A DNA stretch of 64,000 nucleotides from Candidatus Freyarchaeum deiterrae (GTDB lineage: Archaea; Asgardarchaeota; Jordiarchaeia; Jordiarchaeales; Jordiarchaeaceae). Of this stretch, positions 29,753 to 38,420 are shown in pieces (position 1 is the first letter of the stretch; each line of letters starts with the position of its first letter). Location: assembly GCA_037305845.1 (NCBI GenBank), contig CP147778.1, positions 2,464,001-2,528,000 of the forward strand, in the 5' to 3' direction. Under the pieces are notes generated by a model that saw nothing but the letters and a program-made list of their open reading frames with translations, was not told the origin of the DNA and did not search any database. The position numbers and the translations under genes were made by a program.

Positions 29753-30328
29753 ATGAGACTTCTGGGCATTGTTTGCAGCCCGCGCAAAGGCGGAAACACG
29801 GAAATTCTGGTTAAAGAAGCCTTGAAACCGGCTCAGGAAGCCGGTTGGGAAACCGAGTTATTTTTAATGTCAGAAAAACAGGTGGCTCCCTGTGATGCTT
29901 GTGGAGCTTGTTTCAAAACTGGCTCCTGTGTTATTAAAGACGATATGCAAGAACTGTACTCGATGCTTGAACAGGCCGACGGTGTGATAATCGGCAGCCC
30001 GGTCTACTTCGGCAATGTCAGCGCACAGGCCAAAGCGGTCATGGACAGAACCTATGCCATAGCGTTTAAACGAGCACTAAAAGACAAAGTAGCCGGCGCC
30101 ATCGTCGCTGCCAGAAGGGTGGGGGCAGCGCAAGCACGCTCCTTAATATACTCCTTCTGCATTATTCACGGAATGATAGTAGCCGCAGGAGGAATAGGAT
30201 ACGGGGGAGACCCCGGTGATGTCTTAAAGGGAGTAGGAACCATCGGCCCCTCAGCTACGGCAGAAGCACGGCAAGTAGGTATCAGAGTCATGAACCTGGC
30301 GGAACGGCTGACCAAAAGCAAGAAATAA
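29753..30328 (+). CDS. Iron-sulfur flavoprotein (Isf/flavodoxin-like)
   Basis: SPRKGGNT, C..C..C.....C, DDMQ and GSPVYFG motifs; AGGAGG SD before ATG 29753. Confidence 0.9.
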   Translation: MRLLGIVCSPRKGGNTEILVKEALKPAQEAGWETELFLMSEKQVAPCDACGACFKTGSCVIKDDMQELYSMLEQADGVIIGSPVYFGNVSAQAKAVMDRTYAIAFKRALKDKVAGAIVAARRVGAAQARSLIYSFCIIHGMIVAAGGIGYGGDPGDVLKGVGTIGPSATAEARQVGIRVMNLAERLTKSKK

Positions 30329-30598
30329 ATCCATTACAACATTTAAAATGAGCAATAAAAAGGAAGATTATGCCTCAGGTTTTTATTAGTGCATAACTTC
30401 TACATTGCGTAAATCCATATTATCTCCAATTAAGGAGGGGAGGGTGGAGATTATTGTCTCTCTACCTACCATAAATATCATCCACGAACATTTAGCTACA
30501 TAAAAAAATGAAAAAAAAGGGAAAGAGAAATAAATAGCAAAAAAGTAAAGTTCACAAACCAACAATAATGTTACTCAACAAAAAAGGTGAATGTAAAA

Positions 30599-32615
30599 AT
30601 GAAGCTATTCGAACCAATCAAGATAAACACCCTCCAGCTTAAGAATCGTATCACTATGCCCGCCATGCATCTGAATTATATGCGCGTATGATTACTTTGT
30701 ACGCGTAGGTTAAGCAGATCAGGGCTATGTGACTCAGCGATTAATTGATTTTTACGCTGAACGGGCAAAGAATGAGGTAGGTTTGATTCTTGTCGGAGGA
30801 TGTTACACGGAAGTCCTTGCGAAAGGATTCGATACAATGATTAGAATAGATCAGGATGATGCTATTCCAGGTCTTTCAAAACTCACTGAAGCTATTCATG
30901 AGGGTGGTGCCAAATGTGGTGCGCAGTTATACCACTCGGGAAGATACTCGTTTTCTGCGGTGATAGGTCAGGCGTCTGTGAGTGCTTCGGCAGTACAATC
31001 GAAATTCACAGGTGAGACTCCAAGGGCTCTGACGAAGGAGGAAATTCTACAAACTGAGGAGAATTTTGGTGAGGCTGCTCTTAGAGCTAAAAAGGCGAAT
31101 TTCGATGCTGTGGAGCTTATTGCTTCGGCGGGGTACTTGATTCCGCAGTTCCTTTCGCCGCTCACTAATAAGAGGGATGATGAGTATGGTGGTGATCTTA
31201 GTGCTAGGGCGCGGTTCGGTGTTGAGTGTATTCAGGCTATTAGGGACAAGGTTGGGGATGATTATCCCTTGATTATGCGGCTTTCTGGGGATGATATGAT
31301 GCCTGGGGGTAACACTTACCGGGAAGTCAGGGAATACGCTCCTTTATTCGCGGAGGCGGGTGTGGATATGTTTAATGTTACTGGGGGTTGGCATGAGTCG
31401 ACTGTTCCTCAGATTACTATGAATGTTCCGCGGGGTACCTATGTTTGGCTGGCTGAGAATGTTAAAGAGGTTGTTGATGTGCCGGTTATGGCGTGTAACC
31501 GGATTACTGATCCTTTGATGGCGGAGCAGGTTCTTCTTGATGGTAGGGCGGATCTTGTGGGTTTGGGTCGGGGTTTGCTCTGTGACCCGGAGTGGGCTAG
31601 GAAAGCTAAGGAGGGGCGTTTCCGCGAGATTCGGCAGTGTTTGGGTTGTAATCAGGGTTGCTTTGACCATGTGTTTGCACTTCAGCCTGTGGAGTGTTTG
31701 GCGAATGCTGCTGCGAGTCGTGAGGCGGAGTATCGGATTAAGCCTGCTGCTAAGCGTAAAAAGGTACTTATTATTGGTGGCGGACCGGGTGGTATGGAGG
31801 CTGCGAGGGTTGCGAAGCTTAGGGGTCATGATGTTACTCTTTACGAGAAGACTTACACGCTGGGCGGTCAGCTGAACCTAGCCGCGGCACCACAAGACAG
31901 GCGGGAGTTCAAGAATCTGGTTGACTACCTGTCTTATCAAATGAGTTTGCTCGGTGTTAACGTGGTTTTGGGTAAGGAGGTTACTCCTGATGTTGTCAAG
32001 AAGTTGAAGCCAGATGTTGTGATTGTTGCTGCTGGCGGGAGTCCTCTGGTTCCCAAGATTCCCGGAATTGATGGTTCTAACGTGGTTATGTCTTGGGATG
32101 TGCTTGCTGGTAAGGTTGCCGTGGGTAGAAAGGCTGTTGTGGTGGGAGGCGGCGGTGTGGGCTGCGAAGCGGGTCTCTACCTTACTGATCATGCTTCTAT
32201 TACTCCGGAGCAGATGATGTTTCTTGTGAACTTTGGGGTTTTGGACTTGCAGACGGCTTACGACATGGCGAGGAAGACGCGTGACGTTACTATTGTGGAG
32301 ATGCTTGACAAGATGGGTGCGGATATTGGCAGAACCTGTCGTTGGACGATTCTTAAGACTTTGTCTATGTGTGGAGTGCAGATGTTGACTAACGCCAAAG
32401 TGGCGGAGATTACTGATAAAGGCGTGATTCTTGAGAACGGTGATCTTCTTGAGGCGGATACGGTGGTCGTAGCGGTGGGTACTGTTCCCAACAATGAGCT
32501 TATTGACCAGTTGGAGGGCTTGGCTCCTGAAATGTACTCTATAGGTGACTGTGTGCAGCCCAGGAAAGCGTATGAAGCGGTTCACGAGGGAGCTGAAATA
32601 GCTCACAAAATTTAG
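30599..32615 (+). CDS. fadH: FadH-type 2,4-dienoyl-CoA reductase, join(30599..30679,30714..32615), 660 aa
   Basis: Exon 1 MKLFEPIKINTLQLKNRITMPAMHLNY (GGTGA SD at 30586) is the OYE/FadH N-terminus missing from the ORF track. Exon 2 carries GYL (Tyr), GWHE (His), CLGCNQGC..C and two GxGxxG motifs. Confidence 0.85.
30680..30713 (+). other. Candidate 34-nt bulge-helix-bulge (BHB) intron in mRNA
   Basis: ATCTG/CAGAT outer helix, AATT/GGTT 4-bp central helix, 3-nt bulges ATA and AAG, 11-bp inner hairpin. Excision after the second base of each bulge restores the frame (HLNY|ADQGYV). Confidence 0.85.
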
Positions 32616-37115: not shown

Positions 37116-38420
37116 CCGTTATAAAGAGAGGAGACGCTTGAGGAGAAAAACAGGGTGATAAAAACCTATACGGTTCCCCACAACCTCCAGCTGGACCAAT
37201 TCTTCTACGCCTACCTCACAGCCCTAAACAGCATGATCGGCGATGTCTGGAAAAACATCCAGTGGAAAGAAAAAACAATAAAGGGGAAAAAACAGAAGCG
37301 GATACTGCCCACCATCCCCAACTACACCTTCAAGAAGGAGATGAGAGAACAGTACCTGAATGGCTGGGAGTACGCCAGGCACTGGGTCGATTCCGCCCTG
37401 AAAACCGCGTTCTCCATAATAAACAGCTGGAAGAAAAACTACGCCAAAGGAAACCGCAAGAGGAAAAAGCCGGTCGTCAAACGCTGCTTTGTGAGAGTTA
37501 AACAAACACTAATGAGAATCAGTGGGGAAAAGCTACGCATCACCATCAAGCCAGGAGAATACGCAACTATTGATTTGTCGAAACGCTACTTCAGCATAAA
37601 GGGAGGAAGAATCGGGGAGCCCATACTAACCCCCACCAAGCTCCACTTACCCATAGAAACCAACCACGCGGAACAACAACAGCAAAAGGAGCCCGCTGAG
37701 CGGATCGGTTGGGACTCAAACAAGTTCTCAGTGGACGGTTTCTCACCCACCCACGGCTGGATAAAAATTGATTTGAAACCGCTGCACACCCTCCACACAA
37801 CCTACGACAACAAGATGCGCAACATAAACCAAGTGTACTCCAAAAACCGGCGGAAGGGAAAAAGGCTCTACCAAAAATATGGGAAGCGGTGCCGGAACCG
37901 GGTGAAAAACTACCTATGCCACATCGCCAAGCGGATAACCTCTTCATACTTTGGGCAGGCACTGCACGGTTTTGAAAAACTGGAGAAGCAGCGCATGAAA
38001 AAAGGGCACAAGCACCGGTGGAACCGGGAGCTGAACCAAGCGGATTGGCGTCTGCTCGTTTCCCTGATCCGAAACCGGGCACCGGTTGTCGAAGTCAGCC
38101 CCTTTTACACCTCAAAAACCTGCAGCAGGTGCGGGGAAATCCACAAAGCCCTAAGAAGCGAGAAGGTTTTCGAGTGCCCGTTCTGCGGGCTGCTAATCGA
38201 TCGGCAGCTGAACGCCAGCATAAACATTTATCTGAGGATGAGAGGAGTTTCCCCGCGAAGGGAGTGGTTCGACGCCACATTCATCGCGGGTAGGTTTCCC
38301 TTGATCGGGGTGGAGACAAAGATTCCCGATGAACTCGCGAGGGAATTATATGACTCTTTGAAACCCCAATACTACGTAAGTCTACCTCTGACTACATAGT
38401 ATAAAACCTGTCTGTAATGT
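37116..38420 (+). mobile_element. Non-autonomous IS200/IS605/IS607-superfamily element (tnpB only); ends approximate
   Basis: tnpB with no tnpA; visibly GC-richer than its flanks; boundaries estimated by eye. Confidence 0.55.
37155..38399 (+). CDS. tnpB: TnpB RNA-guided endonuclease family protein
   Basis: RuvC-I IGWD, RuvC-II GFEKL, Zn finger TSKTCSRCG..CPFCG, RuvC-III DRQLNASINI. Confidence 0.9.
   Translation: MIKTYTVPHNLQLDQFFYAYLTALNSMIGDVWKNIQWKEKTIKGKKQKRILPTIPNYTFKKEMREQYLNGWEYARHWVDSALKTAFSIINSWKKNYAKGNRKRKKPVVKRCFVRVKQTLMRISGEKLRITIKPGEYATIDLSKRYFSIKGGRIGEPILTPTKLHLPIETNHAEQQQQKEPAERIGWDSNKFSVDGFSPTHGWIKIDLKPLHTLHTTYDNKMRNINQVYSKNRRKGKRLYQKYGKRCRNRVKNYLCHIAKRITSSYFGQALHGFEKLEKQRMKKGHKHRWNRELNQADWRLLVSLIRNRAPVVEVSPFYTSKTCSRCGEIHKALRSEKVFECPFCGLLIDRQLNASINIYLRMRGVSPRREWFDATFIAGRFPLIGVETKIPDELARELYDSLKPQYYVSLPLTT

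What the first reader, a model, noticed from the sequence alone, without database searches (positions are those of the whole stretch)
30599..30730. Canonical bulge-helix-bulge (tRNA-type) intron inside a metabolic protein-coding gene (fadH)
Seen in the sequence: an SD-led ATG at 30599 encodes the FadH/OYE N-terminus MKLFEPIKINTLQLKNRITMPAMHLNY and then hits a stop (MRV*, TGA 30689-30691). The other 633 codons (ADQGYVTQRLIDFY...) are in another frame, closed upstream by TAA 30711-30713. The 34 nt between them fold into a complete hBHBh' motif: outer exon-exon helix ATCTG(30669-73)/CAGAT(30715-19); central 4-bp helix AATT(30674-77)/GGTT(30708-11) with two G-U pairs; 3-nt bulges ATA(30678-80) and AAG(30712-14); inner 11-bp hairpin TGCGCGTATGA/TTGTACGCGTA closing a TTACT loop. 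Established: the archaeal splicing endonuclease EndA cuts after the second base of each bulge and RtcB ligates. Cutting there gives exactly CAT CTG AAT TAT|GCA GAT, an intact 660-aa enzyme, so structure and reading frame independently predict the same junction. The archaeal mRNA intron I know as well documented is in crenarchaeal cbf5. Inference: this probable Asgard archaeon splices a metabolic mRNA with its tRNA-splicing machinery, a possible regulatory layer reminiscent of eukaryotic HAC1/XBP1 splicing. Gene callers would report such genes as truncated, so more could be hidden genome-wide.
Basis: partly seen in the sequence, partly recalled or inferred. Interest (0 to 1): 0.97.

Follow-up and report, generated by a model that had tools for sequence, protein, structure and literature searches.

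The report
tRNA-type intron in Asgard enzyme gene
A flavin-enzyme gene of the Asgard archaeon Freyarchaeum is broken by a 34-base hairpin of the kind archaea cut out of tRNAs; a diverged relative keeps the same hairpin at the same spot, so the message is very probably spliced, and the insert looks as if it was born by duplicating the gene's own neighbouring bases.

Summary
The window is from the complete Freyarchaeum deiterrae genome. The 34-nt insert (30680-30713) recurs unchanged in independent assemblies. Ten relatives fix the junction exactly where the bulge-helix-bulge (BHB) rule cuts. A second species (90% amino-acid identity, synonymous sites saturated) carries a diverged 34-nt insert at the same site, with three double compensatory changes and the same 5-bp exon helix. 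Both exons stay under purifying selection. The genome encodes a two-subunit EndA and RtcB, and at least 21 similar inserts in about 20 protein genes; 18 sense against 0 antisense in a control.

Best reading (0.87): an EndA/RtcB-spliced mRNA intron. No RNA data could be read, and its central helix is the weakest of the family.

New: the insert's last 15 nt copy the preceding ancestral exon (13/15). This points to birth by local duplication across a self-pairing GGYT, a route for the open question of how BHB introns arrive.

Regulation like HAC1/XBP1 is unsupported: the intron is patchy. In the papers searched, cbf5 is the only confirmed intron in an archaeal coding sequence. This scan noted similar introns before, in this and other genomes.

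The parts
30584..30590 (+). Shine-Dalgarno-like AAGGTGA before the true start
   Evidence: sequence; similar leaders in relatives
30599..30679 (+). exon 1, 27 codons: first beta-strand region of the FMN barrel, ending MPAMHLNY
   Evidence: aligns with the N-terminus of E. coli FadH 1PS9 through ortholog P0003; pN 0.16 against pS 0.76 versus the second carrier
30680..30713 (+). 34-nt BHB intron; shifts the frame and holds stops TGA 30689-91 and TAA 30711-13
   Evidence: clean indel against 10 relatives; homologous 34-nt insert in L131/L132
30669..30673 (+). outer helix h, 5' strand ATCTG (pairs with 30715-30719)
   Evidence: all five pairs Watson-Crick in both intron carriers and in none of 11 intron-less orthologs
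30674..30677 (+). central helix H, exon strand AATT (Asn codon; Gly GGN in most relatives)
30678..30680 (+). 5' bulge ATA; predicted cut after 30679
   Evidence: BHB rule; agrees with the ortholog junction
30681..30707 (+). inner hairpin h', 11 bp closing TTACT
   Evidence: 3 double and 3 single compensatory changes against L131
30708..30711 (+). central helix H, intron strand GGTT (GGCT in L131); equals the ancestral exon GGYT
30712..30714 (+). 3' bulge AAG; predicted cut after 30713
   Evidence: AA is the commonest intron end among this genome's tRNA introns, 17 of 38
30699..30713 (+). decayed direct copy of exon bases 30665-30679 (duplication footprint)
   Evidence: 13/15 identical to the ancestral exon in L131; 6/15 identical and 13/15 purine-pyrimidine pattern here
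30714..32615 (+). exon 2, 633 codons: FMN barrel, 4Fe-4S motif and FAD/NADPH domain of a FadH-like reductase
   Evidence: GYL, GWHE, CxxCxQxC and two GxGxxG motifs intact; pN 0.05 against pS 0.80

Best explanation
The insert is a tRNA-type intron in an mRNA. In the transcript a 5-bp exon-exon helix and the 11-bp intron hairpin clamp a weak 4-bp central helix between two 3-nt bulges. The two-subunit EndA cuts after the second base of each bulge (after 30679 and 30713). RtcB joins the exons, giving a 660-aa FadH-like flavoenzyme and probably a circular 34-nt intron. Without splicing, translation stops after 30 residues. It is one of at least 21 such inserts in this genome and behaves as a tolerated passenger that is gained and lost, not as a dedicated switch. 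It most likely arose in place: about 15 nt of exon ending in GGYT-AC were duplicated, GGYT pairs with its own copy through G-U wobbles, and an inverted copy forms the hairpin. The exon copy then changed Gly to Asn (GG to AA), turning wobbles into A-U pairs. Shown: insert, junction, covariation, selection on both exons, machinery genes. Inferred: cleavage and ligation of this RNA, the order of events at its origin (about 0.6), and neutrality.
For: Ortholog-defined junction equals the BHB cut. Second carrier L131 at saturated synonymous distance keeps length, register and hairpin with 3 double compensatory changes; 92.5% of cells paired against 15-53% in slid controls. Outer helix perfect only in the two carriers. 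Both exons under purifying selection, no other lesion. EndA alpha has the Tyr-His-Lys triad and aligns best, without a gap over the specificity-loop region, with the crenarchaeal enzyme in 3P1Z/3AJV; the second EndA gene lacks the His. RtcB present. Family of like inserts, many in single-copy or conserved-motif genes and conserved with varying stems in congeners; 18 sense against 0 antisense. Imperfect central helices are common here: 14 of 56 annotated tRNA introns have a mismatch, 3 have two G-U, and the only rtcB gene has a 3-of-4 helix. Duplication: 13/15 match, chance about 1e-6 at a fixed register, 7/9 outside the constrained positions; no donor elsewhere in the genome.
Against: The central helix is predicted open in the free RNA of both carriers, and L131 has an A-C mismatch in it. 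With only two carriers the covariation count has little power (69 of 500 shuffles equal it). The gene has a full-length paralog at 45% identity, so essentiality cannot be invoked. The duplication signal is strong for fadH only: family-wide p is about 0.04 and this genome's tRNA introns show none (p 0.58).
Confidence: 0.87

Rival explanations
1. The ribosome, not a nuclease, skips the insert: translational bypassing or a +1 frameshift at the hairpin. In L131 the insert is flanked by matching TAC codons.
For: Matching Tyr codons 34 nt apart and a stable hairpin in L131; selection on both exons would look the same.
Against: In this genome the landing codon would be TAA, and TAA closes the downstream frame at the last intron base, so a frameshift anywhere in the insert fails. 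No stop follows the take-off codon. It does not explain the exon-exon helix kept at synonymous sites, nor the shared BHB geometry of 20 other inserts of all three frame classes.
Confidence: 0.03
2. The gene is dead or makes a truncated protein from an internal start (GTG 30729 here; an ATG inside the insert in L131), and the hairpin is an inert scar.
For: Gene callers annotate 628-aa and 638-aa products; a paralog exists; the central helix is weak.
Against: dN/dS about 0.1 or lower on both carrier comparisons; exon 1 keeps its ribosome site, start and conserved residues with saturated synonymous sites. The truncated forms lack the first barrel strand. An inert scar would not keep compensatory pairs.
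Confidence: 0.06
3. The intron is spliced and serves as a regulatory gate, like HAC1/XBP1, with slow cleavage of the weak helix tuning enzyme level.
For: Weakest central helix of the family in both carriers; retained over a long divergence.
Against: Absent from 11 of 13 close orthologs, including the sister gene of each carrier; same design as the genome's ordinary tRNA introns; no link to a sensor.
Confidence: 0.12
4. Origin only: the intron came from outside (transposed from a tRNA or left by a mobile element with a target-site duplication) or was passed between lineages by recombination, rather than being born once in place and lost twice.
For: The two carriers are not sisters (AU test p 3e-90 on the whole gene; p 0.05 on the first 300 nt). 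Exon 1 here is only 73% identical to its sister gene against about 88% downstream, which may mark a recombined patch. A target-site duplication leaves the same direct repeat.
Against: No similar sequence in the genome or among its tRNA introns; no nuclease or transposase gene beside the site in either carrier; the 5' arm is itself an inverted copy of the same exon bases; protein and 5'-end trees put both carriers and their three sisters in one clade (93/94 and 94/91).
Confidence: 0.3

Closest known systems
BHB intron in crenarchaeal cbf5 pre-mRNA (Watanabe 2002; Yokobori 2009, PMC2738675)
   Same: Short BHB insert in a coding sequence, cut after the second base of each bulge by a hetero-oligomeric EndA, often with a relaxed motif, gained and lost among relatives.
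   Different: cbf5 is one RNA-modification gene with cDNA proof. Here it is a metabolic flavoenzyme in an Asgard archaeon, one of about 20 genes, without RNA proof, and with a visible duplication footprint. The 2009 paper calls the origin of the cbf5 intron unclear.
Non-canonical tRNA introns of Freyarchaeia and Atabeyarchaeia (PMC11291895; bioRxiv 10.64898/2026.10.13.758758)
   Same: Same genome, size (mostly 22-32 nt), A-rich bulges, inner hairpin, tolerance of imperfect central helices, repeated recent gains.
   Different: Host is an mRNA. Neither paper reports mRNA introns in the passages searched. [quoted passage not shown]
BHB element in the 5' UTR of Haloferax HVO_1309 (PMC7714728)
   Same: EndA acts on an mRNA.
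   Different: Untranslated region; the reading frame does not depend on it.
HAC1/XBP1 splicing by Ire1 with tRNA ligase or RtcB (own knowledge)
   Same: Non-spliceosomal removal of a short frame-shifting intron with an RNA ligase of tRNA splicing.
   Different: Ire1 is a stress-activated nuclease cutting two stem-loops. Here the housekeeping EndA is implied and no regulation is shown.
E. coli 2,4-dienoyl-CoA reductase FadH (PDB 1PS9)
   Same: Full-length match, E 2e-128; Tyr and His of the active-site motifs and the 4Fe-4S cysteines are aligned.
   Different: No NCBIfam equivalog cut-off is reached; substrate unknown.

Membership tests
Archaeal BHB (EndA-type) intron | 4-bp central helix between exon and intron | tested here: met
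   4/4 pairs with two G-U here; 3/4 in L131 (relaxed class). Predicted open in free RNA.
Archaeal BHB (EndA-type) intron | Two 3-nt bulges 3' of the helix strands, with flanking helices h and h' | tested here: met
   h 5 bp and h' 11 bp (9 of 10 in L131), with compensatory changes.
Archaeal BHB (EndA-type) intron | Cuts after the second base of each bulge restore the uninterrupted sequence | tested here: met
   Insert length 0 at exactly this junction in 10 of 10 genomes of the class, and in further metagenome orthologs.
Archaeal BHB (EndA-type) intron | EndA and RtcB encoded in the genome | tested here: met
   Two EndA genes, one with the catalytic triad, and one rtcB.
Archaeal BHB (EndA-type) intron | Cleavage by EndA, exon ligation and circular intron observed | not testable with these tools
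Regulated non-spliceosomal splicing (HAC1/XBP1 type) | Signal-dependent nuclease and a condition-dependent spliced fraction | not testable with these tools
   No expression data.
Regulated non-spliceosomal splicing (HAC1/XBP1 type) | Intron conserved across orthologs | tested here: not met
   2 of 13 close orthologs carry it.
Translational bypass (T4 gene 60 type) | Matched take-off and landing codons with a stop right after take-off | tested here: not met
   TAT against TAA here; next codon is ATG.
Transposed tRNA intron (Thermoproteales type) | Similar intron sequence at another locus | tested here: not met
   Best match elsewhere in the genome 24/34, chance level. Other genomes were not searched for a donor.
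Curated RNA families (Rfam 15) | Match to a covariance model | tested here: not met
   No match at E up to 1 in 30300-31000.

The most novel reading that the evidence does not exclude
Freyarchaeia routinely splice about 20 mRNAs, metabolic ones included, with the tRNA machinery, and new BHB introns can be born in coding DNA by a short local duplication across a self-pairing 4-mer. The fadH intron would be such a birth caught with its footprint, with the protein sequence then changing (Gly to Asn) to improve the splice helix.
Probability: 0.5. Interest if true: 0.9.

Novelty: new variant of a known kind. Interest (0 to 1): 0.8.

Why it matters
In the papers searched, cbf5 is the one confirmed intron in an archaeal coding sequence. 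Here the closest prokaryotic relatives of eukaryotes appear to need splicing for about 20 protein genes, so their gene catalogues are systematically truncated (this gene is on record as 628 aa) and metabolic reconstructions can miss or misread enzymes. How BHB introns enter genes is stated as open in a 2026 preprint. This locus gives a concrete, testable route: duplicate about 15 nt across a self-pairing GGYT and EndA may already have a substrate. It also suggests that an amino-acid change can be driven by RNA splice structure. Public metatranscriptomes of this soil exist (BioProject PRJNA1050611), so splicing can be tested directly.

Tried and rejected
Pattern scans for other intron-bearing fadH genes gave only chance hits: 3 in metagenome contigs and 42 bacterial ones in genome contigs, none encoding a homolog. 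The metagenome pattern required Asp-Gln and would have missed L131 (Asp-Lys), so carriers are under-sampled. A 200-aa homolog search used the wrong length window and returned nothing. A BHB scan by pairing alone is useless (about 31,000 hits per strand), and frame repair without a length or bulge profile does not beat the antisense control (684 against 713). The profile that gave 18 against 0 was chosen after seeing the candidates, so that contrast is somewhat inflated; the ortholog checks are the independent test. A candidate at genome position 2338488 is non-coding and not conserved and was dropped. Assembly artefact rejected. No Rfam match. No donor copy. The duplication signature was not found in this genome's tRNA introns. 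The whole-gene DNA tree is confounded by third-position composition, so gain-and-loss against transfer is unresolved.

Full report
Observation. Exon 1 runs 30599-30679, the insert 30680-30713 and exon 2 30714-32615. Joining the exons gives 660 codons without a stop. Twelve different 34-nt deletions would restore the frame, but only the one given by the BHB cut rule yields Tyr-Ala-Asp-Gln-Gly-Tyr. The hairpin folds better than shuffles (z -3.5), and 2 of a million shuffled inserts give both the central helix and an 11-bp stem.

Source. The genome is one contig of 3,576,204 bases. This is the length listed for SRVP_Freyarchaeota_curatedFINAL in the supplement of PMC11291895, and that paper's tRNA coordinates fit this sequence. 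It is Freyarchaeum deiterrae, an Asgard archaeon from wetland soil; 92-95% of tRNA genes in the three genomes of that paper carry introns. The insert is not an assembly error: Logan contigs of two separate runs match the window at all 4887 bases compared and a third carries the same insert. Databases record the gene as a 628-aa protein starting at the internal GTG.

Junction. All ten other genomes of the class have an uninterrupted ortholog with insert length 0 at exactly this point. Most read MHLGY where this gene reads MHLNY, so the exon differs from its relatives at the bases that form the central helix. The protein matches E. coli FadH over its full length, with the active-site Tyr and His motifs, the 4Fe-4S cysteines and both nucleotide-binding motifs intact. 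Exon 1 encodes the conserved N-terminal strand region. No curated equivalog cut-off is reached, so fadH is a family name.

A second carrier. A 638-aa hit at 90% identity proved to be another mis-called gene. Loci L131 and L132, from an ENA metagenome, carry a 34-nt insert at the same site. The two inserts share 16 of 34 bases. Outside the loop almost every difference is a transition, and in the inner stem three pairs changed on both sides and three on one side while staying paired. Synonymous sites between the two genes are saturated (pS 0.80), yet the five exon-exon pairs are all Watson-Crick in both carriers and in none of 11 intron-less orthologs. Both exons are under purifying selection: exon 1 pN 0.16 against pS 0.76, exon 2 pN 0.05 against pS 0.80; dN/dS to the sister genes is 0.11 and 0.06. 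A frame-shifting insert at codon 27 kept this long in a gene that is otherwise maintained has to be removed or bypassed. Two sequences give little statistical power on their own; the argument rests on the agreement of several lines.

Machinery. Two EndA genes are present. One has the Tyr-His-Lys triad and matches best the crenarchaeal catalytic subunit in PDB 3P1Z/3AJV, without a gap over the N-terminal loop region; the other lacks the His. This indicates the two-subunit type that, by PMC5829648, cleaves relaxed motifs. RtcB is present. Weak central helices are normal for this cell: of 56 annotated tRNA introns read at their published borders, 14 have a mismatch and 3 have two G-U pairs, and the single rtcB gene itself holds a 29-nt insert with a 3-of-4 helix.

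A family. A genome-wide scan for BHB folds whose removal repairs a frame found a group of 25-39 nt inserts with A-rich bulges. With that profile there are 18 on the sense strand and none in the antisense control (the profile was set after inspection). Nineteen sites were checked against relatives. Inserts in porA, pcm, tyrS, ahcY, a ferredoxin, selD, leuC, kae1, alba, cbf5 and two further genes are kept in all or nearly all congeners examined, with variable stems and a fixed central helix. Those in an HD protein, nadE, a second ahcY site, mvhD, hdrC and one unnamed gene are clean indels against intron-less relatives. Gene names rest on conserved motifs that I recognise. With gatE and rtcB this makes at least 21 sites. 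Earlier notes of this scan had listed several of them. fadH has the weakest central helix of the set and among the strongest flanking helices.

Origin. The last 15 bases of the L131 insert match the ancestral exon end at 13 of 15 positions; outside the positions that the BHB constrains the match is 7 of 9. The intron strand of the central helix (GGCT in L131, GGTT here) equals the Gly codon region of intron-less relatives rather than the complement of the present exon. GGCT and GGTT pair with themselves through G-U wobbles, and two intron-less relatives already have a fully paired exon-exon stem. The 5' arm is an inverted copy of the same bases. My inference is that a short local duplication created a cleavable BHB at once, and that GG to AA in the exon (Gly to Asn, a residue seen in other homologs) later replaced wobbles by A-U pairs. 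No donor exists in the genome. The signal is weak across the mRNA family (p about 0.04) and absent from the tRNA introns, so I claim it for this locus only. A target-site duplication by a vanished element would look similar. An earlier unchecked note reports a duplication-born tRNA intron in another Asgard genome; I reached the idea before reading it and did not test it.

History. This gene is sister to an intron-less gene with Asn, and L131 to two intron-less genes with Gly. Monophyly of the carriers is rejected on the whole gene and borderline on the first 300 nt. Protein and 5'-end trees group all five. One gain with two losses fits, and deletion between the repeats could leave either copy; transfer by recombination also fits. 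Either way the intron is dispensable, which argues against a regulatory role.

Comparison with what is known. It works like the cbf5 pre-mRNA intron and meets every sequence-level criterion of a BHB intron; cleavage was not testable. PMC7714728 (2020) names cbf5 as the only earlier mRNA case and adds a 5' UTR element. PMC2738675 notes that introns in other protein genes were predicted but unconfirmed and that the origin is unclear. The 2026 preprint on Asgard tRNA introns does not mention mRNA and leaves arrival open. PMC11782384 reports direct repeats near intron borders in general, with four archaeal introns. The library lacks most subscription journals, so absence from it is limited evidence.

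Verdict. Real feature; spliced mRNA intron 0.87; born by local duplication about 0.6; regulatory about 0.12. New variant of a known kind. Interest 0.8.

Noticed in passing
G000 genome positions +987065, -1877066, -1145015: BHB inserts in an HD-domain gene, a second ahcY site (56 nt) and mvhD are absent from all relatives examined: recent gains. For mvhD the relatives may be paralogs.
   Followed up: partly
G000 +1619887 (nadE-like) and -2434719 (unnamed gene): Inserts shared only with G002; both sit after a self-pairing 4-mer (TYGG, GGYT), as do fadH and the 56-nt ahcY insert (CCGG). Young inserts may prefer such sites; small, post hoc sample.
   Followed up: partly
L150-L152 (kae1 in the second family of the class): The kae1 insert shrinks to 13-14 nt with no inner hairpin but a 5-9 bp exon helix, against 28-29 nt in this genus.
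   Followed up: no
L199, L200 (alba): Precise absence of the alba insert in two genomes of the second family while three others keep it; one has an altered central-helix exon strand.
   Followed up: no
L180, L181 against G000 +1152345 (hdrC): Inserts of 30 and 39 nt with unrelated inner sequence at the same hdrC site; other copies lack it. Paralogy not resolved.
   Followed up: no
L133 (JGI 3300035643) fadH: Intron-less sister gene keeps the Asn codon and nearly the same leader but has a broken exon helix: possible precise intron loss.
   Followed up: partly
window 30599-30679: Exon 1 is only 73% identical to the sister gene against about 88% downstream, while the leader is nearly identical; possible recombined patch or faster evolution.
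   Followed up: partly
G000 +219764 and +223159: Two similar 83-89 nt elements with perfect BHB geometry (5-bp outer, 4 Watson-Crick central, 14-bp inner, AAA bulges); host not examined.
   Followed up: no
window 37155-38399 (+): TnpB-like gene (NCBIfam 95.5 bits, just under the cut-off of 100), 4.5 kb downstream; no link to the intron seen.
   Followed up: no
L136 (SRR29366191 contig): Same species, same insert, but extra frameshifts in fadH and the upstream flavodoxin-like gene; probably read errors.
   Followed up: no
whole genome: ARAGORN finds only 17 tRNA genes, several mis-assigned, because most carry multiple non-canonical introns; the paper lists 38.
   Followed up: yes
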